UHGV virus genome: UHGV-0135926
DNA: 17,214 nt
Source of the DNA: a virus
Strand: one strand, 5' to 3'
Under the pieces are notes generated by a model. That model did not search any database. It worked only from the letters and a program-made list of their open reading frames with translations, and had not been told where the DNA came from. Position 1 is the stretch's first letter. Each line of letters starts with the position of its first letter. Positions 3,253 to 16,813 of this stretch are shown here, in pieces. The position numbers and the translations under genes are program-made.

Positions 3253-3416
3253 GGCGTTTTACCTTTACGTTCCTGTTCCAGTTGCACCAGAGACTCTTTT
3301 AATGCTGCGAACGTAGCTTCCAGTCTGGTGGCGACTTCGCGCATAAGCGGTGCATGCTTTGGTGGCAATTCAGTAACGGAGGCAAAAGCCTCCGCTACGA
3401 GTTCTTTTACCTTCAT
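3249..3416 (-). CDS. Small hypothetical protein (55 aa), not in the ORF track (below its length cut-off)
   Basis: Hand translation of the minus strand gives MKVKELVAEAFASVTELPPKHAPLMREVATRLEATFAALKESLVQLEQERKGKTP. ATG at 3414-3416 overlaps the TGA of the HD-domain gene (ATGA) and its own TGA overlaps the next ATG, so it fills the gap with perfect coupling. Confidence 0.35.
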   Translation of the reverse strand: MKVKELVAEAFASVTELPPKHAPLMREVATRLEATFAALKESLVQLEQERKGKTP

Positions 3417-3952: not shown

Positions 3953-4034
3953 GTCTTTCTCCATATTGGCGCGCTGCACCGCGCAGATTTTGGTTGCACG
4001 AATCCCTCGCCGGTTGGCGATAATTAATGGAATT

Positions 4035-4058
4035 ACGCTTCAATAAATCCCCGCGGCG
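4035..4058 (-). terminator. GC-rich hairpin with flanking A/T runs; candidate partial (bidirectional) terminator inside the leftward operon
   Basis: aaatccccg (4035-4043) / cggggattt (4050-4058), loop cggcgc, located between the YfdQ-like stop (4081) and the YfdR-like start. Confidence 0.4.
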
Positions 4059-4080
4059 CCGGGGATTTAATGCAGAGCAA

Positions 4081-4908
4081 TTAGGCTTTAAAGTTACCGA
4101 TGAAAGTTTCCACTGATTCGCCTTCGAACTTGCTGATCAGCAAATCGCGGAATTCGTTGGCGATCGCTTCTTCCTGAGCTTCAAGTTGGACAATGCGCAG
4201 AACAAAGCAGGGTTCATCGCTAGTCAGCAGGCTGTTACGCAAGCTAAAGCGGCGTTCGCCCAGGCCTTCATACGGCATACATTTGAACTCGAACGCCACA
4301 GGCATTACGTCTTTGCTGCTTGCTTCAACGCTTTGCATCAGCGATTTTTTACCAGCGAAATCACCAGTTTCATGGTCCTGCTGTGTTGCTTGCTGAATAG
4401 TGATACGACGCACAGCCTGAGCCGCCTGGGAAATCTGCATCGTATTGCCATCAGCATCAAACGCCAGCAGGTAATCGCTCCAGTCTTCCAGCCATTCAGC
4501 AATTTGCTTTTGTTTCAGACGTTGACCATCGATCTGCAGTAACGCGCGGAACGGGGCGGTTTTCTTCAGGGTGATTGAAGCAACGTTATCGGCGTGACCA
4601 GGATTATCCAGGGTGCCGATGTTGAACACTGAACGGGCGGTCATGTTGTCAGCGTCAATGAAGCAACGAGCTGGTTCACTGTCGCTGGCGTAACCTTTAG
4701 AATAACGTGCGAAGTCGTCAATACTGGTTGTGGTCATTTCGCCACGAAAGCGGAAACGTTCCAGAGAAAAGCGCTCGAGGCTTTCAACGCCAGTACCCTC
4801 TGGCAGTAATGCGGTCGGGCAAGCCAGGCCATGAATATCATTCAGGTGATAACCGGAAAGAACCAGGTCTTTGACCTGCTTGAAGGTACCGCTGTCTAAC
4901 TGAGACAT
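4081..4908 (-). CDS. yfdQ: YfdQ-family protein (DUF2303-like)
   Basis: 275 aa; ATG at 4906-4908 with AAGGA about 8 nt upstream. Sequence, size and gene order match the CPS-53 yfdP-yfdQ-yfdR arrangement as I recall it. Confidence 0.7.
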   Translation of the reverse strand: MSQLDSGTFKQVKDLVLSGYHLNDIHGLACPTALLPEGTGVESLERFSLERFRFRGEMTTTSIDDFARYSKGYASDSEPARCFIDADNMTARSVFNIGTLDNPGHADNVASITLKKTAPFRALLQIDGQRLKQKQIAEWLEDWSDYLLAFDADGNTMQISQAAQAVRRITIQQATQQDHETGDFAGKKSLMQSVEASSKDVMPVAFEFKCMPYEGLGERRFSLRNSLLTSDEPCFVLRIVQLEAQEEAIANEFRDLLISKFEGESVETFIGNFKA

Positions 4909-4964
4909 AAAAATTCCTTATTAACTGATGATCAAAGTGGTATCAGTGAGTTTGTTGTTGCGGA

Positions 4965-5336
4965 TCACTGAGCCGCTTTAAGCTTTCCATCCACCGCGCC
5001 AGTGATCCCGAACAGCTGACCCTGATCTTCCTGCAGGATGGTGAGCTTCCCGCCTTTGTTGACCCACATCGGGGTTTCGGTTGTGTCCTCTTCGGAGGCT
5101 TTACCACGCGGTGTTGGGGTGCTGTAGTTCAGCTTGTGCTTGATCTTGACGCGCTTCTCTTCAACGGAATTACCCATGCGCTCAAAATCAAAGGTGAGGA
5201 CTACTTTGCCTTTGTTGCCGTTGTTCAGAACGCCAAGCGCGGTGGTGTTAAGTGCTGCCGCGATTTTGTTCATGAACACGCCGGCATCCAGTTCGCCAAG
5301 AAAATCTGGCACTACGGTCATGCGGTCATTACTCAT
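4965..5336 (-). CDS. First gene of the leftward operon; YfdP-like by size and position (123 aa), function unknown
   Basis: ATG at 5334-5336 with GAGGG 7 nt upstream. Not arginine-rich, so not an N-type antiterminator. Confidence 0.6.
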   Translation of the reverse strand: MSNDRMTVVPDFLGELDAGVFMNKIAAALNTTALGVLNNGNKGKVVLTFDFERMGNSVEEKRVKIKHKLNYSTPTPRGKASEEDTTETPMWVNKGGKLTILQEDQGQLFGITGAVDGKLKAAQ

Positions 5337-5466
5337 GGTTTTACCCTCGTTAAGGCGGCTGCCACCGCCGAACTTTCTCCATACTCAACTGGAAGCGCAC
5401 TCCGCTTGTTTCACACCTGTCACCCATAACTGGTAAGTGAAGGAGTGCGCTTTCATGTTGTGATCT

Positions 5467-5517
5467 GAAAAAGGCTGGCGGTTACCGGAAATACACGGGA
5501 AAACACCGGTCCGCCAG
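5467..5517 (-). terminator. Intrinsic terminator in the pL leader (tL-like)
   Basis: Minus-strand RNA: CUGGCGG-ACCGG-(17-nt loop)-CCGGU-AA-CCGCCAG followed by CCUUUUUC. That is 12 bp of stem with a 2-nt bulge. Plus-strand coordinates 5475-5517 for the stem and 5467-5474 for the U-tract. Confidence 0.6.
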
Positions 5518-5797
5518 AACATGGAGTTACTTGTTATTGCTTTAGCCTGCTTTTAACCACATCAGGCGCGGTGGTAGGTATCTTCGGGCGGGGGCCAGTG
5601 ACTAGCTGGCATCCCTACGGTACTTTTCACCGACAACCGCGGGTTAGACGGTTCCGTTTCGTCGGATAGAGCTGTCGACGCTGGTAGTCACTCCAGCCCG
5701 TAACCCCTCCCGAAGACACCTGTCAGCGAATCATCCGGTTATTCATACGTCACCGGCGGCTACTTCGTGGGCGTCCTGCCTGTTCGCTGTTTCGTAT

Positions 5798-5831
5798 AGG
5801 TACATTATGTACCTTGAGGGTACATTGTCAA
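5798..5831 (-). promoter_or_regulatory. pL promoter with overlapping OL operator(s)
   Basis: On the minus strand: TTGACA (plus 5826-5831), 16-nt spacer, CATAAT (plus 5804-5809). A perfect 19-bp palindrome ATGTACC-ttgag-GGTACAT (5807-5825) overlaps the spacer and -10, with an extra half-site forming AGGTACAT-t-ATGTACCT (5798-5814). Confidence 0.6.
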
Positions 5832-5833
5832 GG

Positions 5834-5859
5834 ATAAAAAAACCTGCCGAAGCAGGTTT
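5834..5859 (-). terminator. Terminator of the repressor transcript
   Basis: Stem aaacctgc (5840-5847) / gcaggttt (5852-5859), loop cgaa, followed on the minus strand by a run of seven U (plus-strand A 5836-5842). Sits between the cI stop (5871) and the pL -35. Confidence 0.65.
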
Positions 5860-5870
5860 GTGATGATGGG

Positions 5871-6545
5871 TTAAGGCTTATGCCTGTGCCGTCGTGGTTT
5901 TCCTGAGAAAACAACGGTGCCAATAATCGAGCAATTACCATTGATCCTAATATATGGCTCTGGCCAGTTGGCGTTTAAAGCTTTAAGAAACTTTTCGCCA
6001 CTATCTTCTATTAATCGTTTAAACGTCGTTTCGCCAGAATCATGCATTAAAGCAATAACATCATCGCCATGAGAAGCTGCAACCTCTGGATCTACAAAAA
6101 TCATATCGCCAGGACGATACTCATCGATCATTGAATCACCAATGACGCGTAAGATATAAGTCATTGGCCCGCACGGAACGGGACAAGGATATGTTTCTAC
6201 ACTACTCAAATCTACCTCTGCATAACCAGCATCCGTCCATGCTCCGGCTTGCACCCAGGATATAACCGGGACCATCGTAATTGATCTTTTAACGTCTGAA
6301 ACGTCGGGTGATTTAGCAATGTTGGTAGTTTGATGTTCGGTATCTAGCCAACCTTGAGGCAAGTCAAAACATTTTTCGATATGCCTTGCCATAGCGTCAC
6401 CAATACCTTTGGTGGCACCTTCACCCATAAACCGGCTGGTTTGTGTAGGTTCACGATCGATCATGTTAGCGAAGTAGCTATTACCCCCAACACCATCTCT
6501 CAATTTTCGGGCGTTTAATCGCCTGATTTCCTGGATAGTTTTCAT
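5871..6545 (-). CDS. cI: CI-type repressor with C-terminal LexA-like S24 peptidase domain (SOS-cleavable)
   Basis: C-terminal half resembles P22 C2 / lambda CI (ISWVQAG…, RVIGDSM with catalytic Ser, TFKRL with catalytic Lys, …INGNCSIIGTVV). N-terminal XRE-like HTH. ATG at 6543-6545 chosen over the track's TTG at 6560 because the putative pRM places the TSS on that ATG. Confidence 0.85.
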   Translation of the reverse strand: MKTIQEIRRLNARKLRDGVGGNSYFANMIDREPTQTSRFMGEGATKGIGDAMARHIEKCFDLPQGWLDTEHQTTNIAKSPDVSDVKRSITMVPVISWVQAGAWTDAGYAEVDLSSVETYPCPVPCGPMTYILRVIGDSMIDEYRPGDMIFVDPEVAASHGDDVIALMHDSGETTFKRLIEDSGEKFLKALNANWPEPYIRINGNCSIIGTVVFSGKPRRHRHKP

Positions 6546-6551
6546 CAGCAA

Positions 6552-6630
6552 ATTAAACAATGTGTACCTCTATGGTACAAGTACCTTGTGGGTTCATTTC
6601 TTTCGTGTAATATGTACACAGGAGGTACAT
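6552..6630. promoter_or_regulatory. OR region: three 19-bp operators, pRM (leftward) and pR (rightward)
   Basis: Operators GTGTACC-tctat-GGTACAA (6562-6580), AAGTACC-ttgtg-GGTTCAT (6579-6597), ATGTACA-cagga-GGTACAT (6612-6630). pRM on minus: TTGTAC (6575-6580), 17 nt, TTTAAT (6552-6557), 6 nt, then ATG. pR on plus: TTGTGG (6586-6591), 16 nt, TAATAT (6608-6613). Confidence 0.55.
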
Positions 6631-6633
6631 ATT

Positions 6634-6834
6634 ATGAAAGAGTATTGGGACTCTTTAACTAAAGAGCAGCAAGGCGAATTAGCTGGAAGCGTAGGTTCCA
6701 CGCCTGGCTACCTGCGTTTAGTTTTCAATGGCTACAAAAAGGCAGGTTTTTCCTTGGCTAAAAAGCTGGAGGAAACAACTGCTGGGATTATCAGCAAATC
6801 TGATCTTCGTCCTGACATTTACCCTAAACAGTAG
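6634..6834 (+). CDS. cro: Cro-like / YdaS-like small HTH regulator
   Basis: 66 aa from ATG 6634 with GGAGG 8 nt upstream; the track's upstream extension lacks an RBS and overlaps the operators. Ends …LRPDIYPKQ, typical of YdaS/Cro-like proteins. Divergent from the repressor. Confidence 0.75.
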   Translation: MKEYWDSLTKEQQGELAGSVGSTPGYLRLVFNGYKKAGFSLAKKLEETTAGIISKSDLRPDIYPKQ

Positions 6835-6877
6835 CAGACGAGCTGATTTTTATAACCACAGAATTAAGGGGTTAACC

Positions 6878-7429
6878 GTGGGTAACGAACCTATTTGGAA
6901 AGTCGAACGTCAGCCAGCCTGGCTGGTGGCGGCGATAAAAAAAACGATCACCGATCTACCTGGTGGTTATGCCGAGGCGGCGGAATGGTTGGGCGTGACA
7001 GAGAACGCATTGTTTAACCGCCTTCGTGTTGACGGCGATCAGATCTTCCCGCTGGGCTGGGCAATGGTTTTACAACGTGCTGGTGGTTCAACTCATATCG
7101 CTGATGCCGTTGCGCGCCATTCTCAGGGCGTATTTGTACCGCTGGCAGATGTTGATGATCTGGATAACGCCGATATCAACCAGCGCCTGATGGAGTCCAT
7201 CGAATGGATAGGCCGTCATTCTAATTTTGTACGTAAAGCCACGGCTGATGGGGTGATTGACGCAGATGAGCGCGCTCAGATTGAGGAAAACAGCTATCAG
7301 GTTATTGCGAAGTTCCAGGAGCACGTAGCGCTTCTTTATCGAGTTTTTTGTGTCGCTGAAAAGAGTGACGCCCGCGAGTGTGCAGCTCCGGGCGCCTTGG
7401 CGAACAACTCTTCGAGTATGGAGAAATAA
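6878..7429 (+). CDS. YdaT-like protein at the CII position
   Basis: Start chosen at GTG 6878 (AGGGG 6 nt upstream); the frame has no Met before this point that does not overlap cro. Follows the YdaS-like gene as in the Rac prophage ydaS-ydaT pair. Confidence 0.55.
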   Translation: MGNEPIWKVERQPAWLVAAIKKTITDLPGGYAEAAEWLGVTENALFNRLRVDGDQIFPLGWAMVLQRAGGSTHIADAVARHSQGVFVPLADVDDLDNADINQRLMESIEWIGRHSNFVRKATADGVIDADERAQIEENSYQVIAKFQEHVALLYRVFCVAEKSDARECAAPGALANNSSSMEK

Positions 7430-7601
7430 TCCGCATGAGCAGTTTAACGGCTTTTAACCGTCTACCGCAACTCAGGATGATCCCGGTTTCGGGTACTCCG
7501 TTGTTTCGGTATGAACGCAGATTATCAAACCGCTTGGTTCCGTGTAACCACAGTAGGGCGGTTTCAATTGTGGGGGTCTACAACCGGAGGGCGAAACGCC
7601 T

Positions 7602-7781
7602 GTGCGCGAACTTAACCGAAGGTTCAAAGATCACCGTGGAGTGCCAGTCCGTGTTATCCGCTGGGAGCCAGAAACACAGCGCGTTATCTATCTGCGTGAT
7701 GGCTACCCGCACGAATGCTTCAGCCCACTTGAGCATTTCAGGCAAAAGTTCAGGGAGATAACGGACGATCATGAGCACTAA
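7602..7781 (+). CDS. Candidate small protein (59 aa, GTG start); an antisense ORF on the minus strand is an alternative
   Basis: Hand translation: VRELNRRFKDHRGVPVRVIRWEPETQRVIYLRDGYPHECFSPLEHFRQKFREITDDHEH. GGAGG lies 11 nt upstream; the stop overlaps the replication gene start by 11 nt. Contains rare codons (AGG x2, CGA, ATA), so it is weak. Confidence 0.25.
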   Translation: MRELNRRFKDHRGVPVRVIRWEPETQRVIYLRDGYPHECFSPLEHFRQKFREITDDHEH

Positions 7782-8628
7782 ATTAACCGGCTACGTATGG
7801 GATGGTTGCGCGGCGTCGGGCATGAAGTTGTCTAGTGTCGCGATCATGGCCCGCCTCGCTGATTTCAGCAGCGATGAGGGCGTGTGCTGGCCGTCCATTG
7901 AAACTATTGCTCGCCAGCTTGGCGCAGGGCCGAGCACTATCAGAACGGCAATCGCTAAGCTTGAAAAAGATGGCTGGCTCACGCGTACACAGCGCCGTAA
8001 TGGTAACCGTAATGCTTCGAACGTGTACCGCCTGAATGTGGCGAAACTTCAGGCTGCCGCATTTTCTCAACTGTCAGATTCTGACACGTCAAAATCTGAC
8101 GCATCAAAATTTGACGCCTCAAAAACTGACCCGTCGAAATCCGTCAAAAACGGCGGTTTTGACCCGTCAGAATCTGGCGGGGATCCGTCAGTAAAATCAA
8201 AACAAGATCCACAAGTAACTTCAAAACCCTCTTGTCCGGTTGCGGCGCAACCAGACCCTGAAGTCGTGATTACTGATCAGGCAATTTTGGTTCTGACCCA
8301 TTTGAACAAGATCAGCGGATCCCGGTATCAGAAATCAAAAACATCCCTGGAGAACATCCGTGCCCGACTGCGTGAGGGATACAGCGTTGCAGACCTGCAA
8401 CTGGTTATCGACCTGAAGCATGAGCACTGGCACGAGAACGACGAGCAGTACCAGTACATGCGCCCGGAAACGCTGTTCGGCCCGAAGAAATTCGAGAGCT
8501 ATCTGCAAAGCGCTACCCGCTGGGAGCAGAAGGGACGGCCTAAACGCGCTGACTGGGGTGCGAAAAAGCGCGATGTGATGGCTTTTGGTCCGGTTGATAC
8601 AACGATTCCAGAGGGGTTCAGAGGATGA
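7771..8628 (+). CDS. Replication initiator (lambda O-like role): N-terminal HTH, iteron-encoded repeat linker, conserved phage C-terminal domain
   Basis: 285 aa; the internal peptide repeat SDSDTSKSDASKFDASKTDPSKS is encoded by the iteron array. Position downstream of the CII analogue. Stop overlaps the next start (ATGA). Confidence 0.8.
   Translation: MSTKLTGYVWDGCAASGMKLSSVAIMARLADFSSDEGVCWPSIETIARQLGAGPSTIRTAIAKLEKDGWLTRTQRRNGNRNASNVYRLNVAKLQAAAFSQLSDSDTSKSDASKFDASKTDPSKSVKNGGFDPSESGGDPSVKSKQDPQVTSKPSCPVAAQPDPEVVITDQAILVLTHLNKISGSRYQKSKTSLENIRARLREGYSVADLQLVIDLKHEHWHENDEQYQYMRPETLFGPKKFESYLQSATRWEQKGRPKRADWGAKKRDVMAFGPVDTTIPEGFRG
8071..8198. repeat. Origin-type iteron array inside the replication gene (15-bp period)
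   Basis: Tandem TGACACGTCAAAATC (8082-8096), TGACGCATCAAAATT (8097-8111), TGACGCCTCAAAAAC (8112-8126), TGACCCGTCGAAATC (8127-8141), then degenerate copies to 8198. Followed by an A-rich stretch. Confidence 0.7.
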
Positions 8629-9506
8629 CGTTAAACAAATATTGCCAGTCGCTGGCGGAACTACGTAGCCAACCAGCCCACGAATTGAAAGAAGTTGGCG
8701 ATCAGTGGCGAACACCGGATCTGCTTTTTTGGGGGATCAACGCGCTATTTGGTCCATTAGTTCTGGACTTGTTTGCTGACGCCGACAACGCGAAATGCCC
8801 GGCATGGTACACCGCCGAAGATAACGCGCTGACGCAGGACTGGTCTGAACGTCTGGCAGAACTGGGTGGCGCTGGCTATGGCAACCCACCGTATAGCCGT
8901 TCGCAGTACCACGAGAAACAGGCGATCACTGGTATGACGCACATCATGAAATACGCAGCAGCCCAGCGCGAGAAGGGCGGTCGCTATGTATTCCTGATAA
9001 AAGCCGCGCCGAGTGAAACGTGGTGGCCGGAAGATGCCGATCACATTGTATTCATTCGCGGGCGCATTGGGTTCGATCTGCCTGTGTGGTTTGTACCTGC
9101 TGACGAAAAACAGAAACCCACCAGCGCGTTTTTTGCCGGTGCCATAGCTGTATTCGATAAGTCGTGGCGTGGTGAGCGGTTCAGCTATATCAACCGCACA
9201 GAACTGGAGGCAAAAGGTCGGGAATTTATGGCGCTGGCTCAATTCGCTGTTGGTAAAGAGCAAACAATTGCAGTGCGGACAGCCCAGGAACCAGTAATAC
9301 CATCGGAAACTGAGTCACGTATCTGGCCTCTAGAGGTTGGTCTGGTGTTTAACCAGGTGGAAGGCGTTGACGTATTGAGTGAGGCTCAGCAGAACAAGCT
9401 GAAAGCCAACATCAATCAACTCTGGCTGGAACGAACGGCCACCAGCGAAATTATTACAATTGCGCGTGGTCTTGTTGGCAGCATGCAGGGGGTAACCCAT
9501 GCGTGA
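8625..9506 (+). CDS. Phage Dam-family DNA N6-adenine methyltransferase
   Basis: 293 aa; catalytic NPPY motif (…GYGNPPYSRS…). Translationally coupled to both neighbours (ATGA at 8625, 8-nt overlap with the next gene). Confidence 0.8.
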   Translation: MTLNKYCQSLAELRSQPAHELKEVGDQWRTPDLLFWGINALFGPLVLDLFADADNAKCPAWYTAEDNALTQDWSERLAELGGAGYGNPPYSRSQYHEKQAITGMTHIMKYAAAQREKGGRYVFLIKAAPSETWWPEDADHIVFIRGRIGFDLPVWFVPADEKQKPTSAFFAGAIAVFDKSWRGERFSYINRTELEAKGREFMALAQFAVGKEQTIAVRTAQEPVIPSETESRIWPLEVGLVFNQVEGVDVLSEAQQNKLKANINQLWLERTATSEIITIARGLVGSMQGVTHA

Positions 9507-11433
9507 GATTATCGTTGATAACTTTGCTGGTGGCGGTGGCGCATCAACGGGTATTGAACTGGCGATCGGGCGCAGCGTGGATATTGCGATAAACCACGAC
9601 GAAAACGCCATTGCGATGCACAAGACGAACCACCCGGACACACTGCATTATTGTGAATCCGTATTTGACGTGGATCCGGTAGCCGCCACCGGAGGTCATC
9701 CTGTCGGACTGGCATGGTTTAGCCCGGACTGCCGACACTTCTCGAAGGCAAAAGGCGCAAAGCCTGTGAAAAAAGAGATACGCGGTCTGGCCTGGATTGT
9801 TCTGCGTTGGGCACTGGCAAAGCGACCGCGCGTGATGATGCTGGAGAACGTGGAAGAGTTCAAAACGTGGGGACCGCTGCTGGCCGATGAAATGCGTCCG
9901 GATCCTGCCCGCACTGGCGAAACATTCAATGCATTTGTCGGCATGCTGTCCACTGGCATTCCTGCTGATCACCCGGCACTGGCTGAGGTTTGTGAGTTTC
10001 TGTCTATCGAAAGAGGTAGCGAGCAGGCACAAAAGCTGGTGGATGGGCTGGGATATGATGTTGATTATCGCGAACTACGTGCGTGTGATTACGGCGCGCC
10101 GACGATCCGCAAACGCTTCTTCATGGTTATGCGTTGCGATGGTTGCCCAATCCAGTGGCCTGCTATTACCCATGGGGATCCTAAGTCTCTGGAGGTGCAA
10201 AGTGGCAGGCTGATGCCATGGCGTACCGCTGCGGAATGTATCGACTGGAATATTCCGGCCCTGTCCATCTTCGACCGCAAAAAACCGCTGGCGGAGAACA
10301 CTCTGAAGCGGATCGCGCGCGGCATACAGCGCTTTGTTATCGAAAGTGCGTCGCCGTTTATTGTGAAGTGCAACCACACGAGCTCAAAAAATGCGTATGA
10401 CGCTTTTCGCGGACAGTCACTGAATGAGCCATTACAGACCATTACTAAAAAACTCGGCTACGCGTTAGCCGTTCCACACCTGACAAAATTCCGCACTGGC
10501 GCAACCGGGCAGCCCCTTACCGAACCTGTTCCGACGGTAACCGCTGGCACGTCAAAACGCCCGGGCGGGAACGGGCATGCACTCGGGATTGTTGAGGCTG
10601 CACTGACGCCATTCCTGGCGGGTAATGGTGGTAGTGAATACCAGGCGAAACCGCGCCCGCTGGATAAACCTGCTCATACCATTCTGAAGCAATCCCGAGC
10701 CTGTCTGGTTGCGCCAGTGATAGCCCGCCAGTTTGGGGCCAGCGTCGGCCACCGTGCAGACGAACCGAGCGCAACCATCACCGCTGGTGGTGGCGGTAAA
10801 TCTCAACCGGTAACGCCTACGCTGATTCAGATGGGTTATGGCGAACGACCTGGGCAAGAACCGCGTGTGCTGCGACTGGATAACCCGCTGGGGACCGTTA
10901 CTGCAGGCGGAAATAAATTTGCGACGGTGAGCGCGTTCCTGGCGAAACACTACGGCGGTAACTATACGGGGCCTGGTGTCAGTATGGATGAACCCGCGCA
11001 TTCAGTGACCACTGTCGACCATCATGCGGTAGTTGCCTCTCATCTGGTGAAACTGCGTGGAACATGCCGCGACGGGCAACGCCTTGATGTGCCAATGCCA
11101 ACAATCACTGCTGGTGGCCAACACGTGGGTGAGGTACGCACATTTCTCGAGACGTATTGCGGGGAAAGTGACGATGAATGGCTGGTAACGATCGATGGGG
11201 TTAAATACCAGATCGTTGATATCGGAATGCGCATGTTGCAGCCGCATGAACTCTACAAAGCGCAGGGCTTCCCGGATGGTTACGTTATTGATCAGGACTA
11301 CCGTGGAAATCGCTATGCAAAAGATAAGCAGGTAGCCCGCTGCGGTAATGCGGTACCACCACCATTCGCCAGGGCGCTGGTGGAGGCAAATCTTCCGGAA
11401 CTGTGTGCAGTGCAACAGCAGGAGGTGGCATGA
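9499..11433 (+). CDS. DNA cytosine-5 methyltransferase with a long repeat-containing variable region
   Basis: 644 aa. Motif I FAGGGG, PC-type motif SPDCRHFS, motif VI MLENV, motif VIII TIRKRFFMV, motif IX LQPHELYKAQGFPDGY, motif X RCGNAVPPPF. Between VIII and IX there are seven tandem units with core h-[DNT]-[EKNV]-P-x-x-[TS]-[IV]-T. Confidence 0.85.
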   Translation: MREIIVDNFAGGGGASTGIELAIGRSVDIAINHDENAIAMHKTNHPDTLHYCESVFDVDPVAATGGHPVGLAWFSPDCRHFSKAKGAKPVKKEIRGLAWIVLRWALAKRPRVMMLENVEEFKTWGPLLADEMRPDPARTGETFNAFVGMLSTGIPADHPALAEVCEFLSIERGSEQAQKLVDGLGYDVDYRELRACDYGAPTIRKRFFMVMRCDGCPIQWPAITHGDPKSLEVQSGRLMPWRTAAECIDWNIPALSIFDRKKPLAENTLKRIARGIQRFVIESASPFIVKCNHTSSKNAYDAFRGQSLNEPLQTITKKLGYALAVPHLTKFRTGATGQPLTEPVPTVTAGTSKRPGGNGHALGIVEAALTPFLAGNGGSEYQAKPRPLDKPAHTILKQSRACLVAPVIARQFGASVGHRADEPSATITAGGGGKSQPVTPTLIQMGYGERPGQEPRVLRLDNPLGTVTAGGNKFATVSAFLAKHYGGNYTGPGVSMDEPAHSVTTVDHHAVVASHLVKLRGTCRDGQRLDVPMPTITAGGQHVGEVRTFLETYCGESDDEWLVTIDGVKYQIVDIGMRMLQPHELYKAQGFPDGYVIDQDYRGNRYAKDKQVARCGNAVPPPFARALVEANLPELCAVQQQEVA

Positions 11434-11816
11434 AACTTGTGCTCCCGTTCCCTCCGAGCGTGAACACGTACTGGCGCGCCCCTAATAAGGGGCCGCTGGC
11501 CGGTCGTCACCTCATTAGCGCTGATGCTCGTAAATACCAGAGCGCTGCCTGCGTGGCGATCATTGAGCAATTACGACGTCTCCCGAAGCCATCGACTGAA
11601 CTGGCAGCGGTAGAAATCACTCTGTACCCGCCGGATGCGCGCCGCCGGGATATCGATAATTACAACAAAGCCCTGTTTGACGCGCTGACGCATGCGGGTG
11701 TCTGGGAAGACGACAGCCAGATTAAGCGCATGCTGGTGGAATGGGGACCCGTAGTGCCGAAAGGTCGGGTAGAGATAACGATCAGCAGATATGAACCGGC
11801 GGGTGCAGCCGCCTGA
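11430..11816 (+). CDS. rusA: RusA Holliday-junction resolvase
   Basis: 128 aa from ATG 11430 (AGGAGGTGG upstream, ATGA overlap with the methyltransferase stop). Clear similarity to E. coli RusA (…LPFPPSVNTYW…, …DARRRDIDNYNKALFDALT…). Confidence 0.85.
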   Translation: MKLVLPFPPSVNTYWRAPNKGPLAGRHLISADARKYQSAACVAIIEQLRRLPKPSTELAAVEITLYPPDARRRDIDNYNKALFDALTHAGVWEDDSQIKRMLVEWGPVVPKGRVEITISRYEPAGAAA

Positions 11817-11829
11817 TATGGAGAAAAGT

Positions 11830-12513
11830 ATGAGCCAATTAGCAACAACAGCATTAACCATGTCCAGCAGCGATATTGCTGAGCTGGTGGAATCACGACA
11901 TGACCATGTTAAACGGTCCATTGAACGCCTGGCAGAGCGCGGTGTTATTGAACTCCCCCCAATGGGGGAAGTTAAAAATCACCTCAATCAGTCGGTATCG
12001 GTTTATCTGATAGGGAAGCGGGACAGTTATATCGTTGTCGCGCAGCTGTCGCCGGAGTTTACCGCGCGTCTGGTTGATCGCTGGCAGGAGCTTGAGCAGG
12101 CACAGCAGCAGACGATTCCTCAATCATTCTCTGAAGCCCTACGTCTTGCAGCTGACCTTGCAGAACAAAAACAGCAGTTGACTAACGAACTGGCTGCCGC
12201 GGCGCCGAAGGTAGCGTTTGTTGATCGGTACTGTACAGCCAGTGGGTCAATGTCATTCCGCCAGGTGGCAAAACTGCTTAAGGCCAAAGAGCCAGATCTG
12301 CGGTTATTCCTCCTTGAGAACGACATCATGTATCGCCTTGGCGGAACGATGACCCCACGGCATCAGCATATTGATGCGGGCCGTTTTGAAGTGAAAACCG
12401 GCACATCCGTAACCTCAAATCATGCATTCAGCCAGGCACGTTTCACGGCGAAAGGCGTGCGCTGGATTGGTGGACTGTGGGCAGAACACATTGCCAGGGG
12501 GCAGGTCGCGTGA
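11830..12513 (+). CDS. Rha-family phage regulatory protein with C-terminal KilAC/antirepressor-like domain
   Basis: Start chosen at ATG 11830 (GGAG about 6 nt upstream). N-terminus (…SSSDIAELVESRHDHVKRSIERL…) is Rha-like; the C-terminus is ANT/KilAC-like. Confidence 0.65.
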   Translation: MSQLATTALTMSSSDIAELVESRHDHVKRSIERLAERGVIELPPMGEVKNHLNQSVSVYLIGKRDSYIVVAQLSPEFTARLVDRWQELEQAQQQTIPQSFSEALRLAADLAEQKQQLTNELAAAAPKVAFVDRYCTASGSMSFRQVAKLLKAKEPDLRLFLLENDIMYRLGGTMTPRHQHIDAGRFEVKTGTSVTSNHAFSQARFTAKGVRWIGGLWAEHIARGQVA

Positions 12514-13505
12514 GAGCTCTGCTTACCCCCGAGATCGCCCATCGTATGGGGATTGTGCTGTTCCGTCCCGGTGCGGAACTGATGCACCTCTTCATGCGTG
12601 GTCGCGTTCTGCTCGAGCCTGAACCAGAAGAAATGGCGTCATTCAGTACCGGGGCTGTTCCGGCAGCCATTCAGCCGCTGGCTGATGATCCGGTAATGCG
12701 TCAGGTCTTCGAGAATGAGAGGGTTATTCAGCGTGCCGGTGGGATTTCTTCCCTTGAGCAATGGTTGAGTAATCGGTTTGTATGCCAGTGGCCACATTCA
12801 ACGTGGCACGACAAGAACTTCACAACAATGCGGCACCCACCAGGAAGCATTCGCCTGTGCTGGCATTGCGATCACACTTTGTCGGGGCAGCATACCGAAC
12901 AGCTTGCAGGTATAGCGGCCGGAAACCTGGTATCCTGGATTCTGGAAGTCATTCGGCGTGATTCTGGTTTTCCCGAGTCGCATATCCTGACGCTTCCGGA
13001 ACTGTGCTGGTGGATGGTTAGAAACGACCTGGCTGATGTTATTCCGGAAAGCGTTGCGCACAAGGGGCTACGCCTTCCGGATGAGAAGATCCGCTCGGTC
13101 ATGAGGGAAAGCGACATTGTGCCTTCCGCGTCTGCAACCAGCCTCGTGCAGGAGAAGGCGAAGAAGATCCTAACGCTCTCTGTTGATCCGGAGTCGCCAG
13201 AGTCTTTCATGCTCAGGCCAAAGCGACGCCGCTGGGTAAATGAGACGTACACCCGCTGGGTTAAAACACAACCCTGTGAGTGTTGCCGACGGCCAGCAGA
13301 TGATCCGCACCATATCGTAGGGCACGGTATGGGTGGTACAGCAACAAAAGCCCATGACCTCTTCGTGATCCCTCTGTGCAGAGAGTGCCACGACGAGTTA
13401 CACGCCGATGTACCAGCATTCGAGCAGAAGCATGGTACGCAGCTTGAGCTGCTACTGCGTTTTATGGATCGGGCGCTGGCGATCGGCGTAATTGCGAAAG
13501 CTTAA
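12510..13505 (+). CDS. DUF968 / YdfU-like protein with C-terminal Cys/His HNH-like motif
   Basis: GTG at 12510-12512 overlaps the upstream TGA (GTGA). C-terminal …CECCRRP…HHIVGHGMGG…PLCRECHDELH… resembles the Qin-prophage YdfU family, which sits next to QuuQ in E. coli. Confidence 0.6.
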   Translation: MRALLTPEIAHRMGIVLFRPGAELMHLFMRGRVLLEPEPEEMASFSTGAVPAAIQPLADDPVMRQVFENERVIQRAGGISSLEQWLSNRFVCQWPHSTWHDKNFTTMRHPPGSIRLCWHCDHTLSGQHTEQLAGIAAGNLVSWILEVIRRDSGFPESHILTLPELCWWMVRNDLADVIPESVAHKGLRLPDEKIRSVMRESDIVPSASATSLVQEKAKKILTLSVDPESPESFMLRPKRRRWVNETYTRWVKTQPCECCRRPADDPHHIVGHGMGGTATKAHDLFVIPLCRECHDELHADVPAFEQKHGTQLELLLRFMDRALAIGVIAKA

Positions 13506-13520
13506 ACGTATGGAGACCGT

Positions 13521-14351
13521 ATGAACCTGGATAATGTACTGAAATTTTTTGCGCCGAAAGGTATGCACATATCAGATACCAGCAGAGCGACAGCCAGTGA
13601 ACAACTGACGGTTACTGATGTAATGGCTGCACTGGGGATGACTCAGGCCGATGCGGGGATAGGCCTGGCAATGTTTCTGGGCAAAGCTGGTATCAGCAGC
13701 CAGGACAGGGAGGCGTCAATAGCTTGGCTAACGGAGTACGCGAAAGAGCATGCGCCCATGGCCATTCGTAAAGCGTCAGGGAAAAAGTTTCCCCTCTGCA
13801 TGCGTATTCTTGCCCGGTTTGCCTATAACGATTATTCCTCATCAGCCGCTGATAGCGTGGCATGCCCAAAATGTAGTGGTAAAGGGTTGCTTACAACTAC
13901 TAAAACCGTGACTAAAAGTCATTACACAATGCGATTGCCACAATGGGCAAAAGACCTGAGACAGTCACCATCTGACTTTGAGGTTAAGCGCGATGTAACT
14001 GACACTGATCATACGTTATGTTCCCGCTGCCATGGCACAGGAAAGTTAAGTAAGCGATGCCAGTGCGGCGGCACAGGTAAGACTATTGACCGTAAAGCGA
14101 CAGAACTGCAGGGCGTACCGGTTTACAAAGAATGTAAGCGCTGTGAAGGTCGGGGATACAGCAGGCCAAAATCATCGGTTGCCTATCGAGGTGTTTTTTC
14201 TGAGTTGCCGAGTCTGCCTGACCGAACGTGGCGTTATAGCTGGAAACCATTCTATGAAAGCCTGGTGACCAAATGTTTCCAGGAGGAGAGTTATTCAAGC
14301 TCTCAACTGAATCGGGTGACTAAAAGTGAAGATGTGATAAATATCGCGTAA
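13521..14351 (+). CDS. Q: Late-gene antiterminator Q (QuuQ-like) with four CxxCxGxG-type zinc-finger motifs
   Basis: 276 aa; GGAG 5 nt before the ATG. Position immediately upstream of a pR'/tR' unit and the lysis genes. Motifs CPKCSGKG, CSRCHGTGK, CQCGGTGK, CKRCEGRGY. Family assigned by context and size rather than a clear sequence match. Confidence 0.6.
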   Translation: MNLDNVLKFFAPKGMHISDTSRATASEQLTVTDVMAALGMTQADAGIGLAMFLGKAGISSQDREASIAWLTEYAKEHAPMAIRKASGKKFPLCMRILARFAYNDYSSSAADSVACPKCSGKGLLTTTKTVTKSHYTMRLPQWAKDLRQSPSDFEVKRDVTDTDHTLCSRCHGTGKLSKRCQCGGTGKTIDRKATELQGVPVYKECKRCEGRGYSRPKSSVAYRGVFSELPSLPDRTWRYSWKPFYESLVTKCFQEESYSSSQLNRVTKSEDVINIA

Positions 14352-14367
14352 TTTAGCGTCATGATGT

Positions 14368-14408
14368 TTGCAATGTTGCCGTTTTTGTGTATATTTGACA
14401 TTAACGAT
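14368..14408 (+). promoter_or_regulatory. Late promoter pR' with promoter-proximal pause element
   Basis: TTGCAA (14368-14373), 16 nt, TATATT (14390-14395), then tgacattAACGATGGG (14403-14411). Lambda pR', as I recall it, is TAAATT-tgactc-AACGATGGG with the AACGAT pause-inducing element. Confidence 0.55.
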
Positions 14409-14432
14409 GGGCATTGTATGTTCAGAGTTAAG

Positions 14433-14459
14433 AAACCCGCCACCGAGCGGGTTTTTTTT
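14433..14459 (+). terminator. tR'-type intrinsic terminator
   Basis: Stem aaacccgc (14433-14440) / gcgggttt (14447-14454), loop caccga, followed by a T8 run. Confidence 0.75.
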
Positions 14460-14493
14460 GCACTAGGCCATTCAATCTACGTAAAAATCAATG

Positions 14494-14502
14494 TGTTACA
14501 AT
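14494..14502 (+). promoter_or_regulatory. Candidate extended -10 promoter for the moron gene
   Basis: TGtTACAAT (TG at 14494-14495, hexamer 14497-14502) about 36 nt upstream of the ATG at 14538. No convincing -35. Confidence 0.3.
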
Positions 14503-14537
14503 AGCCGCAAGCAAAACGACAACACAAAGGCGGCATA

Positions 14538-14780
14538 ATGAAATTAACATCTGTTCATATCGAAACTCTGAGTCGCGCAAGCGCTCTTGGACCACGTGAA
14601 ACAATTCAATCTTCTGATCTTCCTCACATTCCAGCGGAAGCGGTGAATTTTGCTATTTCTGATCTCGCTGAGTTGGGTCTGGTAAATGCTGTGCAGAGTA
14701 CGTCTGATTGTGACGACAGCTGGATAGTGAATAGAATTACGTCTAAAGGGAATAGCTATTTAATTGATCTTGAGTCTTAA
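14538..14780 (+). CDS. Moron-encoded small acidic protein (80 aa), function unknown
   Basis: ATG 14538 with AAAGG 7 nt upstream. AT-richer than flanking genes. Sits between tR' and the holin gene, with its own candidate promoter and terminator. Confidence 0.55.
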   Translation: MKLTSVHIETLSRASALGPRETIQSSDLPHIPAEAVNFAISDLAELGLVNAVQSTSDCDDSWIVNRITSKGNSYLIDLES

Positions 14781-14817
14781 CTATCTGATTAATAAATAGG
14801 TACACCACATTTATTAA

Positions 14818-14840
14818 GGCTGCCTTCTGGTGGCCTTTTT
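14818..14840 (+). terminator. Candidate intrinsic terminator after the moron gene
   Basis: RNA stem GGCUGCC / GGUGGCC (two G-U pairs), loop UUCU, followed by UUUUU (14836-14840). Confidence 0.45.
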
Positions 14841-15021
14841 CATATTCAGGGCTCACTGACGGACGGCTCATAACCCAATCCGACAGGCGCTTGCGCAGAG
14901 CCCGTTCTGATTCAGGATCACGGGAATCATCCTCGATACGCATTGTTGATAAATCCAGCCCGTGAAGCCTGATCCTCCTTTCATCACACAGCGCCATCCG
15001 AACTATCGGAGGTGAGAGACC

Positions 15022-15357
15022 ATGAAAATGCACAACGACCCTCACTCCTGGACGGAGTTAATTGAGTTACTTCATAGCTGGTGGCGCGGTGATACGCCAA
15101 TGGGTGCCGTCCTTTTATCGGTAGCGATGGCTGTACTGCGAATTGCGTATGTCGGCGGTGGCTGGAAAAAGATGGTGCTGGAAGGGTTGATGTGTGGCGC
15201 CATGACGCTGACGGCTGTTTCCGCACTCGAGTATTTCAACCTTCCACAGTCTCTTTCCATCGCTATCGGTGGCGCGCTGGGTTTCGTTGGCGTTGAGCAG
15301 GTGCGCTCAATGGCCACGCGTGTTTTCAACGTTCGCTTTGGTGGCGACGCCAAGTAA
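15022..15357 (+). CDS. Class I holin (lambda S-like) with dual-start motif
   Basis: N-terminal M-K-M dual start, three predicted transmembrane segments, charged C-terminus, GGAGG upstream. First gene of the lysis cassette. Confidence 0.8.
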   Translation: MKMHNDPHSWTELIELLHSWWRGDTPMGAVLLSVAMAVLRIAYVGGGWKKMVLEGLMCGAMTLTAVSALEYFNLPQSLSIAIGGALGFVGVEQVRSMATRVFNVRFGGDAK

Positions 15358-15366
15358 GGGATCCCC

Positions 15367-16532: not shown

Positions 16533-16544
16533 AACAACAGAGGT

Positions 16545-16748: not shown

Positions 16749-16813
16749 CGGCATTACAGCAGGCATTCACTGAGTGCCTGCGATAATGCTATGCGTTTTT
16801 TTGGGGAGTGAAT

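What the first reader, a model, noticed from the sequence alone, without database searches (positions are those of the whole stretch)
8625..11433. Translationally coupled Dam-like and C5 methyltransferase pair inside the replication module, with no restriction enzyme
Two orphan methyltransferases of different chemistry overlap each other and the initiator gene, so they are expressed early with replication. This is consistent with broad self-protection against host restriction. I saw no endonuclease partner in the window.
Basis: partly seen in the sequence, partly recalled or inferred. Interest (0 to 1): 0.45.

Follow-up and report, generated by a model that had tools for sequence, protein, structure and literature searches.

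The report
Prophage Dam plus multi-module cytosine methyltransferase
A Salmonella-type lambdoid prophage carries two restriction-less DNA methyltransferase genes after its replication gene; the pair is ordinary, but the cytosine enzyme holds seven shuffled recognition modules and always follows a small uncharacterised domain.

Summary
ORF 8625-9506 is a phage N6-adenine methyltransferase (PF05869/TIGR01712). ORF 9499-11433 is a C5-cytosine methyltransferase. They overlap each other, the O-like initiator gene and rusA by 4-8 nt. No restriction endonuclease model matched any window ORF.

The pair itself is not new: orphan methyltransferases in phage replication modules, including large (~700 aa) m5C enzymes with relaxed specificity, are published.

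Two features went beyond the finding.
1. The C5 enzyme has the family-wide motif IV P-D-C instead of P-C. Between motifs VIII and IX it carries seven tandem ~35-aa units that resemble the M.HhaI recognition-loop core. Close homologues carry 5-9 units and differ by whole units. Unit types are conserved across distant phages but sit at different positions. This points to a multispecific enzyme like those of Bacillus phages SPR and phi3T.
2. The last ~65 aa of the "Dam" protein form a separate conserved domain, which I call X. X lies directly upstream of this C5 gene in 76 of 76 informative enterobacterial loci, either alone or fused to different amino-methyltransferases.

The most likely role is broad protective methylation of replicating phage DNA. 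Target sites, multispecificity and the role of X remain untested.

The parts
7771..8628 (+). O-like replication initiator gene (context). It contains iteron-like repeats, a probable origin, at about 8073-8230.
   Evidence: Pfam HTH_36 plus Phg_2220_C. PHROG families for replication initiation O-like proteins. Direct and inverted repeats of TGACxCGTCxAAATC.
8625..9506 (+). Dam-X gene (293 aa): an N6-adenine methyltransferase domain fused to the C-terminal X domain.
   Evidence: ATGA overlap with the upstream gene.
8679..9221 (+). PF05869 Dam catalytic domain (aa 19-199). DLFAD lies at 8766-8780 and NPPY at 8883-8894.
   Evidence: Pfam E 9.5e-44. TIGR01712 above its cutoff. Motif positions.
9297..9494 (+). 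X domain (aa ~225-290; WPLEV at 9324-9338, INQLWLER at 9411-9434). A conserved ~65-aa module found directly upstream of this type of C5 gene.
   Evidence: phmmer and HMM hits in 76 of 80 IMG/VR loci. PHROG 16025 and the C-terminus of phrog_111. No Pfam or PDB relative.
9499..11433 (+). C5-cytosine DNA methyltransferase gene (644 aa) of the phage 'P-D-C' family.
9499..10368 (+). Catalytic lobe, motifs I-VIII. FAGGGG lies at 9523-9540, SPDCRHFS (catalytic Cys78) at 9721-9744, ENV at 9844-9852 and TIRKR at 10102-10116.
   Evidence: Motif positions. These columns are invariant in alignments A1 and A2. pLDDT above 90.
10384..11181 (+). Array of seven tandem TRD-like units (aa 296-561): 10411-10506, 10507-10650, 10651-10746, 10747-10866, 10867-10977, 10978-11073, 11074-11181.
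   Evidence: The unit HMM finds 7 hits with E about 1e-7 each. Homologues show whole-unit insertions and deletions. Unit types are conserved in distant homologues at other positions. The region has low pLDDT.
11182..11433 (+). C-terminal part of the catalytic fold, motifs IX-X. RMLQPHELYKAQGFP lies at 11230-11274 and GNAVPPP at 11344-11364.
   Evidence: pLDDT about 90.
11430..11816 (+). rusA gene (context). Its ATG overlaps the C5 stop codon (ATGA), and AGGAGG lies 4 nt upstream.
   Evidence: Pfam RusA. Sequence.

Best explanation
Setting (shown). The window is the early-right operon of an ST64B/phiNP/Flotzy-like lambdoid prophage, most likely of Salmonella enterica.

Expression (inferred). 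After induction or infection, transcription from the cro side reads through the O-like initiator gene. It then reads two orphan DNA methyltransferase genes whose start codons overlap the preceding stop codons, so the proteins would be made together with the replication proteins.

First protein. It is a PF05869 N6-adenine methyltransferase (shown). It carries an extra C-terminal ~65-aa X domain (shown).

Second protein. It is a C5-cytosine methyltransferase with an intact catalytic core whose motif IV reads P-D-C (shown). Its variable region is an array of seven diverged copies of the minimal recognition element, comparable to recognition loops I and II of M.HhaI (shown at sequence level).

How the array works (inferred). 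Each unit would dock in turn on the single catalytic lobe and direct methylation of its own short target. One polypeptide would then methylate several unrelated sites, as the multispecific enzymes of Bacillus phages SPR, phi3T, H2 and rho11s do. Gain, loss and exchange of whole units among related prophages would retune the set of protected sites.

Biological role (inferred). Adenine and cytosine methylation together pre-protect newly replicated phage DNA against the type II and other methylation-sensitive restriction systems of the next host.

Role of X (speculative). X most likely acts with the C5 enzyme as a partner or tether.
For: Enzyme identities:
-.
- All catalytic residues are invariant across 71 and 120 diverse homologues: P76, D77, C78, E116-N117-V118, R204, R206, G616-N617.
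- 139 of 150 family representatives have DCxx[FHY]S and none has PCxx[FHY]S.

The array:
- A unit HMM finds seven hits in the window protein.
- The 120 closest homologues (at least 78% identical) carry 5-9 units, in architectures such as CDEABF, CDEAABF (the window), CDEAABBG and CDABF. Examples differ by clean in-register whole-unit deletions or insertions.
- Units within the protein are only 15-42% identical to each other. Each nevertheless has counterparts of at least 50% identity (best 66-92%) in distant representatives (about 42-76% identical overall, mostly 45-60%), and these can sit at different positions. Module 5 is position 2 in F116 and position 1 in phi2LM21.
- M.HhaI residues 232-289 were verified. 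They share the pattern G-x-G-E-R ... T-[LV]-[ST]-A-x-G-G ... hydrophobic strand with the units.
- AlphaFold folds the catalytic lobe confidently but not the array. That fits independent, DNA-dependent modules better than a regular repeat fold.

Experimental precedent in relatives:
- Prophage m5C enzymes JCM7686_0772 and _2655 gave partial protection at AGCT, GGCC, GCGC, CCGG, CCNGG, CCWGG, CCSGG, ACGT, CTCGAG, CAGCTG, GCN7GC and other sites. They gave none at CGCG, GATC, CTAG, CATG, GANTC or CCATGG.
- PMC5537653 links these enzymes to Phi2LM21_p23. Phi2LM21_p23 is 38% identical to the window protein over 99% of its length.

Orphan status.

Operon context.

An adenine methyltransferase recurs next to this C5 family in phiNP, Flotzy, F116 and phi2LM21.
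Against: - No methylation data exist for this protein or any close relative.
- The characterised relatives are distant. Their unit arrays were not inspected, and their authors read the result as relaxed specificity rather than multispecificity.
- Phi2LM21_p23 showed no activity in E. coli.
- The units (30-48 aa) are at the small end of published TRD sizes, as I recall them.
- The structure model gives no support for any docking geometry.
- No sequence homology to the Bacillus phage enzymes was shown.
- Enteric hosts often carry methylation-dependent nucleases (McrBC, Mrr), which would penalise heavy m5C. This is general knowledge and was not tested here.
- GATC is over-represented in the window (89 observed against 64.8 +/- 7.5 expected) and clusters beside the putative origin. 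That fits a replication-control role for the adenine enzyme at least as well.
Confidence: 0.55

Rival explanations
1. The methyltransferases mainly serve the phage's own replication, packaging or gene timing rather than anti-restriction. The adenine enzyme would keep origin or pac GATC-type sites fully methylated during rapid replication, as P1 Dmt does for pac.
For: - The genes directly follow the initiator gene.
- Iteron-like repeats at 8073-8230 are followed by five GATC sites within 137 nt.
- GATC is over-represented in the window.
- PMC5537653 proposes a replication role for methyltransferase genes in phage replication modules.
- The EcoSal review states that P1 packaging needs Dam methylation at pac sites.
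Against: - The host supplies Dam, so the benefit is unclear.
- Other GATC clusters of 3-4 sites occur elsewhere in the window.
- A regulatory role does not explain a seven-module C5 enzyme whose modules are gained, lost and shuffled between close relatives.
- 16 of 80 Dam-X loci lack the C5 gene, as ST64B does. The C5 enzyme is therefore dispensable for the phage cycle.
Confidence: 0.2
2. The repeat region is not a set of alternative recognition domains. It is one extended, loosely structured DNA-binding region that gives a single relaxed specificity, for example a short CC- or GC-type context. The number of units only tunes affinity or processivity.
For: [quoted passage not shown]
- Protection was partial at all sites.
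- AlphaFold gives no defined fold for the region.
Against: - The protected sites (AGCT, ACGT, GCGC, GGCC, CCGG, CTCGAG) share no common short context, while CGCG and CCATGG were not protected.
- Units are strongly diverged from each other, but each type is conserved across distant phages. That pattern is expected for specialised modules, not generic spacers.
- Every unit keeps the framework P-x-x-T-[IV]-T-x-G-G, like M.HhaI loop II.
Confidence: 0.2
3. The X domain has nothing to do with the C5 enzyme. It is either the normal C-terminal domain of these amino-methyltransferases or an independent small protein. Its constant position would only reflect a conserved recombination boundary of the mosaic phage genome.
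For: - In a sample of 80 X-containing loci, 16 Dam-X loci and one small-X locus are followed directly by rusA with no C5 gene. ST64B is an example.
- X was not detected next to distant C5 homologues in Ralstonia, Paenibacillus, phi2LM21 or F116.
- No X-C5 fusion occurs among the 150 representatives.
Against: - 76 of 76 enterobacterial C5 loci with upstream sequence have X ending 4-8 nt into the C5 start, across C5 identities of 57-99%.
- X occurs alone as an ~85-aa ORF in 30 of those loci and in hundreds of protein clusters.
- X is fused to at least three kinds of upstream partner: PF05869 Dam, a protein with a DPPH motif and a protein with a DPPW motif.
- Its codon differences are highest at third positions.
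Confidence: 0.45
4. One or both genes are inactive passengers, or the C5-like enzyme transfers something other than methyl, because its motif IV lacks the canonical Pro-Cys.
For: - Phi2LM21_p23 was inactive in E. coli.
- Prophage methyltransferases are often silent in lysogens.
- A C5-carboxymethyltransferase (8yf3) is among the structural matches.
Against: - Both ORFs are intact and all catalytic columns are invariant.
- Near-identical copies are widespread; the closest cluster has 1124 member sequences.
- P-D-C is the family norm.
- Inteins sit exactly before this Cys in some members, and inteins typically target essential active-site residues.
- Relatives blocked m5C-sensitive restriction enzymes.
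Confidence: 0.1

Closest known systems
Multispecific C5-methyltransferases of Bacillus phages (M.SPRI, M.Phi3TI, M.H2I, M.Rho11sI; Trautner laboratory, cited in PMC12707154 and PMC8936443)
   Same: A temperate-phage orphan enzyme with one catalytic core. Several recognition modules lie in tandem between motifs VIII and IX. Modules differ between related phages. The proposed role is protection against many restriction systems.
   Different: No sequence homology was shown. Here there are 5-9 shorter units instead of 3-4. Motif IV is P-D-C, not P-C-Q. The hosts are Gram-negative. A conserved X domain precedes the gene. Multispecificity is inferred, not measured.
Large (~700 aa) prophage m5C methyltransferases with relaxed specificity: JCM7686_0772/_2655 of Paracoccus aminophilus (PMC3925955), Phi2LM21_p23 of Sinorhizobium (PMC5537653), ARM81 phage enzymes of Aeromonas (cited there)
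   Same: Same protein family: Phi2LM21_p23 is 38% identical to the window protein over 99% of its length. It also carries tandem units. The genes lie in or beside replication modules, have no endonuclease partner and often sit next to an adenine methyltransferase gene.
   Different: The published work does not describe the tandem-unit architecture, the P-D-C motif or an X domain. X was not detectable in phi2LM21. The neighbouring adenine enzyme there is CcrM-like (GANTC), not PF05869.
Phage P1 Dmt (bifunctional Dam plus C5 methyltransferase)
   Same: An enterobacterial temperate phage combines N6-adenine and C5-cytosine methyltransferase activities in one repressor-controlled early unit.
   Different: Dmt is a single polypeptide with the opposite order: a canonical G-T-P-C-Q C5 domain at the N-terminus and a D12-class Dam at the C-terminus. 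It gave no phmmer hit to either window protein, no hit to the X HMM and no real unit match. It is an analogue, not a homologue.
PF05869/TIGR01712 phage Dam enzymes (HP1 Dam, T1 Dam, VT2/933W Dam; these examples are from my own knowledge)
   Same: Same catalytic family, an NPPY motif and a small (~170 aa) core.
   Different: The window protein has an added ~95-aa C-terminal extension that contains X. Relatives also carry a ~150-aa insert or an N-terminal PP-loop (PAPS-reductase-like) domain. GATC specificity is assumed, not shown.

Membership tests
Phage N6-adenine methyltransferase (Pfam PF05869 Dam / NCBIfam TIGR01712) | Profile score above the curated cutoffs | tested here: met
   PF05869 scored 149.5 bits against a cutoff of 28.1. 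TIGR01712 scored 204.8 bits against 97.05.
Phage N6-adenine methyltransferase (Pfam PF05869 Dam / NCBIfam TIGR01712) | Catalytic (D/N)PPY motif and AdoMet-binding motif | tested here: met
   NPPY at aa 87-90 and DLFAD at aa 48-52.
Phage N6-adenine methyltransferase (Pfam PF05869 Dam / NCBIfam TIGR01712) | Methylates adenine in GATC | not testable with these tools
   No methylome data. GATC is not avoided in the window, which says nothing decisive.
DNA C5-cytosine methyltransferase (PF00145) | Motifs I (FxGxG), VI (ENV), VIII (RxR) and X (GN) | tested here: met
   F9-A-G-G-G-G, E116-N-V, R204-K-R206 and G616-N. These columns are invariant in alignments A1 and A2.
DNA C5-cytosine methyltransferase (PF00145) | Motif IV Pro-Cys dipeptide carrying the catalytic Cys | tested here: inconclusive
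   The Cys is present (C78) and aligns with the PC Cys of 3g7u. The preceding residue is Asp, giving S-P-D-C. This holds family-wide: 139 of 150 representatives.
DNA C5-cytosine methyltransferase (PF00145) | C5-methyltransferase fold | tested here: met
   The catalytic lobe has pLDDT above 90. Foldseek probability is 1.00 to 3g7u, DNMT1, MET1, M.HaeIII and M.HhaI.
Multispecific phage C5-methyltransferase (SPR/phi3T type) | Several contiguous recognition modules between motifs VIII and IX | tested here: met
   Seven units, each keeping the P-x-x-T-[IV]-T-x-G-G framework. They resemble the verified M.HhaI loop region.
Multispecific phage C5-methyltransferase (SPR/phi3T type) | Modules can be removed or exchanged independently | tested here: inconclusive
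   Natural homologues differ by clean whole-unit insertions and deletions, and carry unit types at different positions. The activity of these variants is unknown.
Multispecific phage C5-methyltransferase (SPR/phi3T type) | Several distinct target sequences methylated by one polypeptide | not testable with these tools
   The only data are on distant relatives: partial protection at about 16 unrelated sites.
Multispecific phage C5-methyltransferase (SPR/phi3T type) | Sequence homology to the Bacillus phage enzymes | not tested
   Bacillus is not among the 10 most frequent organism names of the tblastn search against phage records. No direct comparison was made.
Type II restriction-modification system | Cognate restriction endonuclease gene adjacent to the methyltransferase gene | tested here: not met
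   The neighbours are the O-like initiator gene and rusA. No restriction-endonuclease model matched any window ORF in Pfam or among the PADLOC families listed.
P1 Dmt-type bifunctional methyltransferase | Both domains in one polypeptide, homologous to Dmt | tested here: not met
   Here there are two separate ORFs. phmmer found no hit between Dmt and either window protein.

The most novel reading that the evidence does not exclude
The X domain is an obligatory partner of this clade of C5 methyltransferases. It docks on the catalytic lobe. When fused to an adenine methyltransferase, it builds a two-chemistry complex. The C5 array is a cassette system in which each ~35-aa unit encodes one target, so prophages re-program a multi-target 'methylation coat' by swapping units. 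That would be a Gram-negative counterpart of the Bacillus multispecific enzymes: far more modular, with minimal recognition domains whose code could be read and engineered.
Probability: 0.2. Interest if true: 0.7.

Novelty: new variant of a known kind. Interest (0 to 1): 0.5.

Why it matters
- **A readable recognition code.** If each short unit specifies one target, this widespread family offers a natural library of minimal, portable C5 recognition modules. The family has 2,558 clusters at 50% identity with E up to 1e-30. It would also show that multispecific anti-restriction methylation is common in phages of enteric bacteria, not a Bacillus curiosity.
- **Practical relevance.** It would bear on phage host range and phage therapy, because such phages would be pre-protected against many restriction systems. 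It would also bear on the reading of m5C signals in Salmonella, Klebsiella and Citrobacter methylomes.
- **The X domain.** It has no family annotation beyond a PHROG label, yet it is invariably linked to the gene in enterobacteria. It is a cheap experimental target.
- **If the mundane readings hold.** The locus is then an ordinary orphan methyltransferase pair of a lambdoid prophage.

Tried and rejected
- **Single-sequence AlphaFold of the C5 protein.** Useless: mean pLDDT 33.
- **AlphaFold with a 120-sequence alignment.** It folded only the catalytic lobe. The array stayed below pLDDT 50, so no docking model could be derived.
- **Sequence search of one unit against the PDB.** No hits.
- **Profile of the whole family against the PDB.** It aligned only catalytic motifs.
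- **X domain against known families.** No Pfam family. Best PDB match E = 0.31, not meaningful.
- **X outside enterobacteria.** Not found in phi2LM21, F116, Ralstonia or Paenibacillus loci. A universal X-C5 pairing was therefore rejected.
- **P1 Dmt as a homologous fused version.** Rejected: different subfamilies, opposite domain order, no X.
- **'PAPS reductase' between the O gene and the C5 gene in Flotzy and ST64B.** Rejected as a label: those proteins are Dam-X or Dam-insert-X. True PP-loop-Dam-X fusions do exist elsewhere.
- **Rosetta-stone X-C5 or Dam-C5 fusions among the long family members.** None found. Those inspected owe their extra length to inteins, longer unit arrays or N-terminal extensions.
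- **Literature.** Seven full-text searches found no description of the tandem-unit array or of X in proteobacterial phages. Trautner 1996 and Murphy 2013 are not held.
- **BLAST self-comparison of the array.** It found no repeats; motif anchoring and an HMM were needed.

Full report

Yes. The + strand carries three consecutive ORFs:
- 7771-8628 (285 aa)
- 8625-9506 (293 aa)
- 9499-11433 (644 aa)

The first is an O-like initiator, with HTH_36 and Phg_2220_C domains and PHROG replication-initiation families.

The second matches Pfam PF05869 'Dam' (E 9.5e-44, aa 19-199). It also matches the NCBIfam equivalog TIGR01712 'phage N-6-adenine-methyltransferase' at 204.8 bits against a cutoff of 97. It has NPPY at aa 87-90.

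The third matches PF00145 (E 5.4e-20) in three stretches. It matches PDB C5 methyltransferases by sequence. Its AlphaFold catalytic lobe (pLDDT above 90) matches 3g7u, DNMT1, MET1, M.HaeIII and M.HhaI by fold.

The overlaps are as described: ATGA at 8625-8628 and 8 nt at 9499-9506, each with a purine-rich run 6-8 nt upstream. The C5 stop also overlaps the rusA ATG (ATGA at 11430-11433, with AGGAGG upstream). Tight coupling is therefore a property of the whole operon.

**2. Context**

The window is the early region of a mosaic lambdoid prophage. Its gene order is:
- a cI-like S24 repressor gene (5871-6560, minus strand)
- cro-like and CII-like genes
- the O-like initiator gene
- the two methyltransferase genes
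- rusA
- a Rha/KilAC antirepressor gene
- a DUF968/HNH gene
- the Q antiterminator gene
- a lysis cassette
- a small HNH gene

The nearest isolated phages are Eeyore, Flotzy, phiNP, LLS and ST64B. They match at about 80% identity over at most 37% of the window. The closest C5 protein cluster is from Salmonella enterica, 98% identical with 1124 member sequences.

Between the cro side and Q, the consensus scan found no more promoter-like or terminator-like sites than in shuffled sequence. Early co-transcription with the replication gene is therefore a reasonable inference.

No ORF matched a restriction-endonuclease family in Pfam. PADLOC matched 36 families over 32 ORFs; the 25 listed are all methyltransferase models and the other 11 were not shown.

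**3. The C5 enzyme is not ordinary**

*Motif IV.* It reads S-P-D-C-R-H-F-S, whereas the canonical form is P-C-Q-x-F-S. This is family-wide:
- 139 of 150 representatives at 50% identity have DCxx[FHY]S and none has PCxx[FHY]S.
- P76, D77 and C78 are invariant in two diverse alignments, along with ENV, RxR and GN.

*Seven repeated units.* Between motif VIII (aa 202-206) and motif IX (aa 578-592) lie seven units of 30-48 aa. Their pattern is: G-rich loop, then L-(D/N)-E-P-x-x-T-[IV]-T-A-G-G, then a hydrophobic strand.

I verified that M.HhaI residues 232-289 read VGKGGQGERIYSTRGIAITLSAYGGGIFAKTGGYLVNGKTRKLHPRECARVMGYPDSY. From established structural work on M.HhaI (my own knowledge), residues 233-240 and 250-257 are the two recognition loops. 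Compare window unit 5 together with the loop that precedes it: MGYGERPGQEPRVLRLDNPLGTVTAGGNKFATVSAFL. It follows the same G-x-G-E-R ... T-V-T-A-G-G ... strand layout. Each unit therefore looks like a minimal recognition domain.

*Modular variation.* The family behaves as a set of modules:
- The 120 closest homologues (at least 78% identical) are 570-700 aa long and carry 5-9 units.
- Clustering the units gives architectures CDEABF (34 proteins), CDEAABBG (29), CDEAABF (16, the window type), CDEAABG (12), CDAABF, CDEAABBF, CDABF and others.
- The sequences show clean in-register whole-unit deletions or insertions. For example, P0025 lacks unit 5 and P0003 has an extra unit.
- Within the window protein the modules are only 15-42% identical to each other.
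- Each module type nevertheless has counterparts of at least 50% identity (best 66-92%) in distant representatives. These are about 42-76% identical overall (mostly 45-60%), and the counterpart can sit at a different position. Module 5 is second in Pseudomonas phage F116 and first in Sinorhizobium phage phi2LM21; module 4 is third in P0170 and sixth in P0155.

Diverged, type-conserved, shuffled modules are what specialised recognition domains predict. Generic structural repeats would not show this pattern.

AlphaFold, given a 120-sequence alignment, left the array below pLDDT 50. That is uninformative, but it does not suggest a regular solenoid or propeller.

**4. What is known about relatives?**

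The family is large: 8,362 cluster representatives at E up to 0.001 and 2,558 at E up to 1e-30. It occurs in many phages, including Burkholderia, Vibrio, Pseudomonas F116, Sinorhizobium phi2LM21, Halobacterium phiH, Gordonia and Mycobacterium phages.

PMC3925955 tested two Paracoccus prophage relatives. Both gave partial protection against 16 enzymes, including those cutting AGCT, GGCC, GCGC, CCGG, CCNGG, CCWGG, CCSGG, ACGT, CTCGAG, CAGCTG and GCN7GC. Neither protected CGCG, GATC, CTAG, CATG, GANTC or CCATGG. The authors call this relaxed specificity. A multi-module enzyme would produce the same pattern.

The held reviews describe tandem recognition domains only for Bacillus phages. I found no paper describing the array in proteobacterial phages.

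**5. The 'Dam' protein is a fusion, and its tail is the constant neighbour of the C5 gene**

Pfam covers only aa 19-199. The last ~65 aa carry the motifs WP-x-EV ... Q-x-K-L-K-x-x-I-N-x-L-W-L-E ... I-I-x-x-A-x-x-L. I call this region X.

In 80 IMG/VR loci encoding C5 homologues 57-99% identical to the window protein, every locus with upstream sequence (76 of 76) has X at the end of the ORF directly upstream of the C5 gene. In the loci where the C5 start could be placed, the upstream stop overlaps it by 4 nt (35 loci) or 8 nt (20 loci).

X occurs in these forms:
- alone, as an ~85-aa ORF (30 loci)
- fused behind PF05869 Dam (the window, phiNP)
- fused behind Dam plus a ~150-aa insert (Flotzy, where it is mislabelled PAPS reductase)
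- fused behind a PP-loop (PAPS-reductase-like) domain plus Dam
- fused behind a small protein with a DPPH motif
- fused behind a protein with a DPPW motif that I read as MT-A70-like (by eye; not scanned)

Other facts about X:
- Nucleotide differences fall mainly at third codon positions: 29,036 against 16,940 and 11,524. The region is therefore under coding selection.
- It has no Pfam family and no PDB sequence relative.
- It corresponds to PHROG 16025 and to the C-terminus of phrog_111. Both are labelled 'DNA methyltransferase'; I take the label to come from the fusions.
- 993 protein clusters match it. The best 120 are all short proteins of about 71-106 aa, mostly 85 aa. Those that carry a name are called hypothetical proteins of Enterobacteriaceae.

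The dependence is one-sided. Of 80 X-containing loci, 57 are followed by the C5 gene. Sixteen Dam-X loci and one small-X locus are followed directly by rusA, as in ST64B.

X was not found next to distant C5 homologues in phi2LM21, F116, Ralstonia or Paenibacillus. No X-C5 fusion exists among the 150 representatives.

X may be a partner or tether for the C5 enzyme. It may instead be an independent domain at a conserved mosaic boundary. I rate the two readings as roughly even.

**6. Mechanism**

Best-supported reading (confidence about 0.55). On induction or infection, the early-right transcript yields the initiator and both methyltransferases. The adenine enzyme and the multi-module cytosine enzyme methylate replicating phage DNA at several unrelated short sites. 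Progeny then enter new hosts already protected against many methylation-sensitive restriction systems. Gain, loss and exchange of units retune the protected set.

| Status | Claims |
|---|---|
| Shown | Gene identities, intact catalytic motifs, operon layout, absence of an endonuclease gene, unit architecture and its modular variation |
| Inferred | Activity, number and nature of targets, timing of expression, anti-restriction benefit, role of X |

Main rivals:
- A replication or packaging role. Five GATC sites lie within 137 nt beside iteron-like repeats at 8073-8230, and GATC is over-represented at 89 against 64.8 +/- 7.5 expected.
- A single relaxed specificity rather than several discrete ones.

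**7. Comparison and novelty**

P1 Dmt combines the same two chemistries but is an unrelated fusion. It has a canonical PCQ C5 domain at the N-terminus and a D12-class Dam at the C-terminus, and gave no phmmer hit to either window protein.

The pairing of an adenine methyltransferase gene with this C5 family recurs in phiNP, Flotzy, F116 and phi2LM21. It is absent in Ralstonia and Paenibacillus prophages.

RefSeq already annotates such E. coli genes as 'phage N-6-adenine-methyltransferase' and 'DNA cytosine methyltransferase'. The finding as written is therefore known biology.

Three things appear undescribed in the literature I could search: the 5-9-unit recognition array with whole-unit shuffling, the family-wide P-D-C motif, and the X domain. 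I file the locus as a new variant of a known kind, with moderate interest.

Noticed in passing
window 2153-2614 (-): A 153-aa ORF in the early-left operon matches PHROG 1384 'Mom-like DNA modification protein' (E 2.5e-41, profile positions 21-159 of 245). It is borderline to Pfam Mom (27.0 bits against a cutoff of 27.1). It may be a third, perhaps truncated, DNA-modification gene in the same prophage.
   Followed up: partly
window 8073-8230 and 8182-8321: Iteron-like direct and inverted repeats (TGACxCGTCxAAATC, three or more copies, plus two 22-nt repeats that start with GATC) lie inside the O-like gene and are probably the origin. Five GATC sites lie within 137 nt (8182-8321) and overlap the downstream end of the repeat cluster.
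   Followed up: partly
window 1-17214: GATC is over-represented: 89 sites against 64.8 +/- 7.5 in dinucleotide-preserving shuffles, and none of 200 shuffles reached 89.
   Followed up: no
proteins P0130, P0184, P0192 (distant C5 homologues): Inteins of about 380-420 aa are inserted exactly between D and C of the P-D-C motif (SPD|CFPAGT...VVHN|CKHFS). The catalytic Cys is therefore the +1 extein residue.
   Followed up: no
L002 3849-5183 (phage Flotzy); ST64B 32333-33205; L035 3265-5004; L076 3214-5004: Genes annotated 'phosphoadenosine phosphosulfate reductase' in Flotzy and ST64B are really Dam-insert-X or Dam-X proteins with no PAPS-reductase Pfam hit. True triple fusions of a PP-loop (SGGRTS) domain with Dam and X exist in other IMG/VR loci and probably seeded the label.
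   Followed up: partly
ST64B (NC_004313) 32333-33606; 16 of 80 loci in L086-L165: Dam-X is followed directly by rusA with no C5 gene. The C5 gene behaves as an optional cassette inserted between the X stop codon and rusA.
   Followed up: yes
window 10501-11000: This 500-nt block has the highest G+C of the window (0.60 against about 0.52 on either side). It coincides with units 1-6 of the recognition array. The cause may be Gly/Pro/Ala-rich coding or a foreign origin.
   Followed up: no
window 12477-13505 (+) and 16808-17164 (+): Two HNH-type nuclease genes: a DUF968 / PHROG 96 gene 1 kb downstream of the C5 gene, and a small HNH gene after the lysis cassette. Both look like phage housekeeping nucleases (my reading; P1 pdcB is also annotated as an HNH endonuclease). 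A link to methylation status was not examined.
   Followed up: no
L001 10791-11843 (Citrobacter phage phiNP): phiNP, which has the same O / Dam-X / C5 order, carries a third methyltransferase gene (annotated DNA-adenine methylase) between Q and the holin gene. The window has no gene of that kind there.
   Followed up: no
L004 2072-5789 (Pseudomonas phage F116): The F116 homologue of the C5 enzyme (687 aa, 8-9 units) is flanked on both sides by overlapping adenine-methyltransferase-like genes. The upstream one is D12 class; the downstream one gave only weak methyltransferase hits. Together they form a three-gene methyltransferase block.
   Followed up: partly
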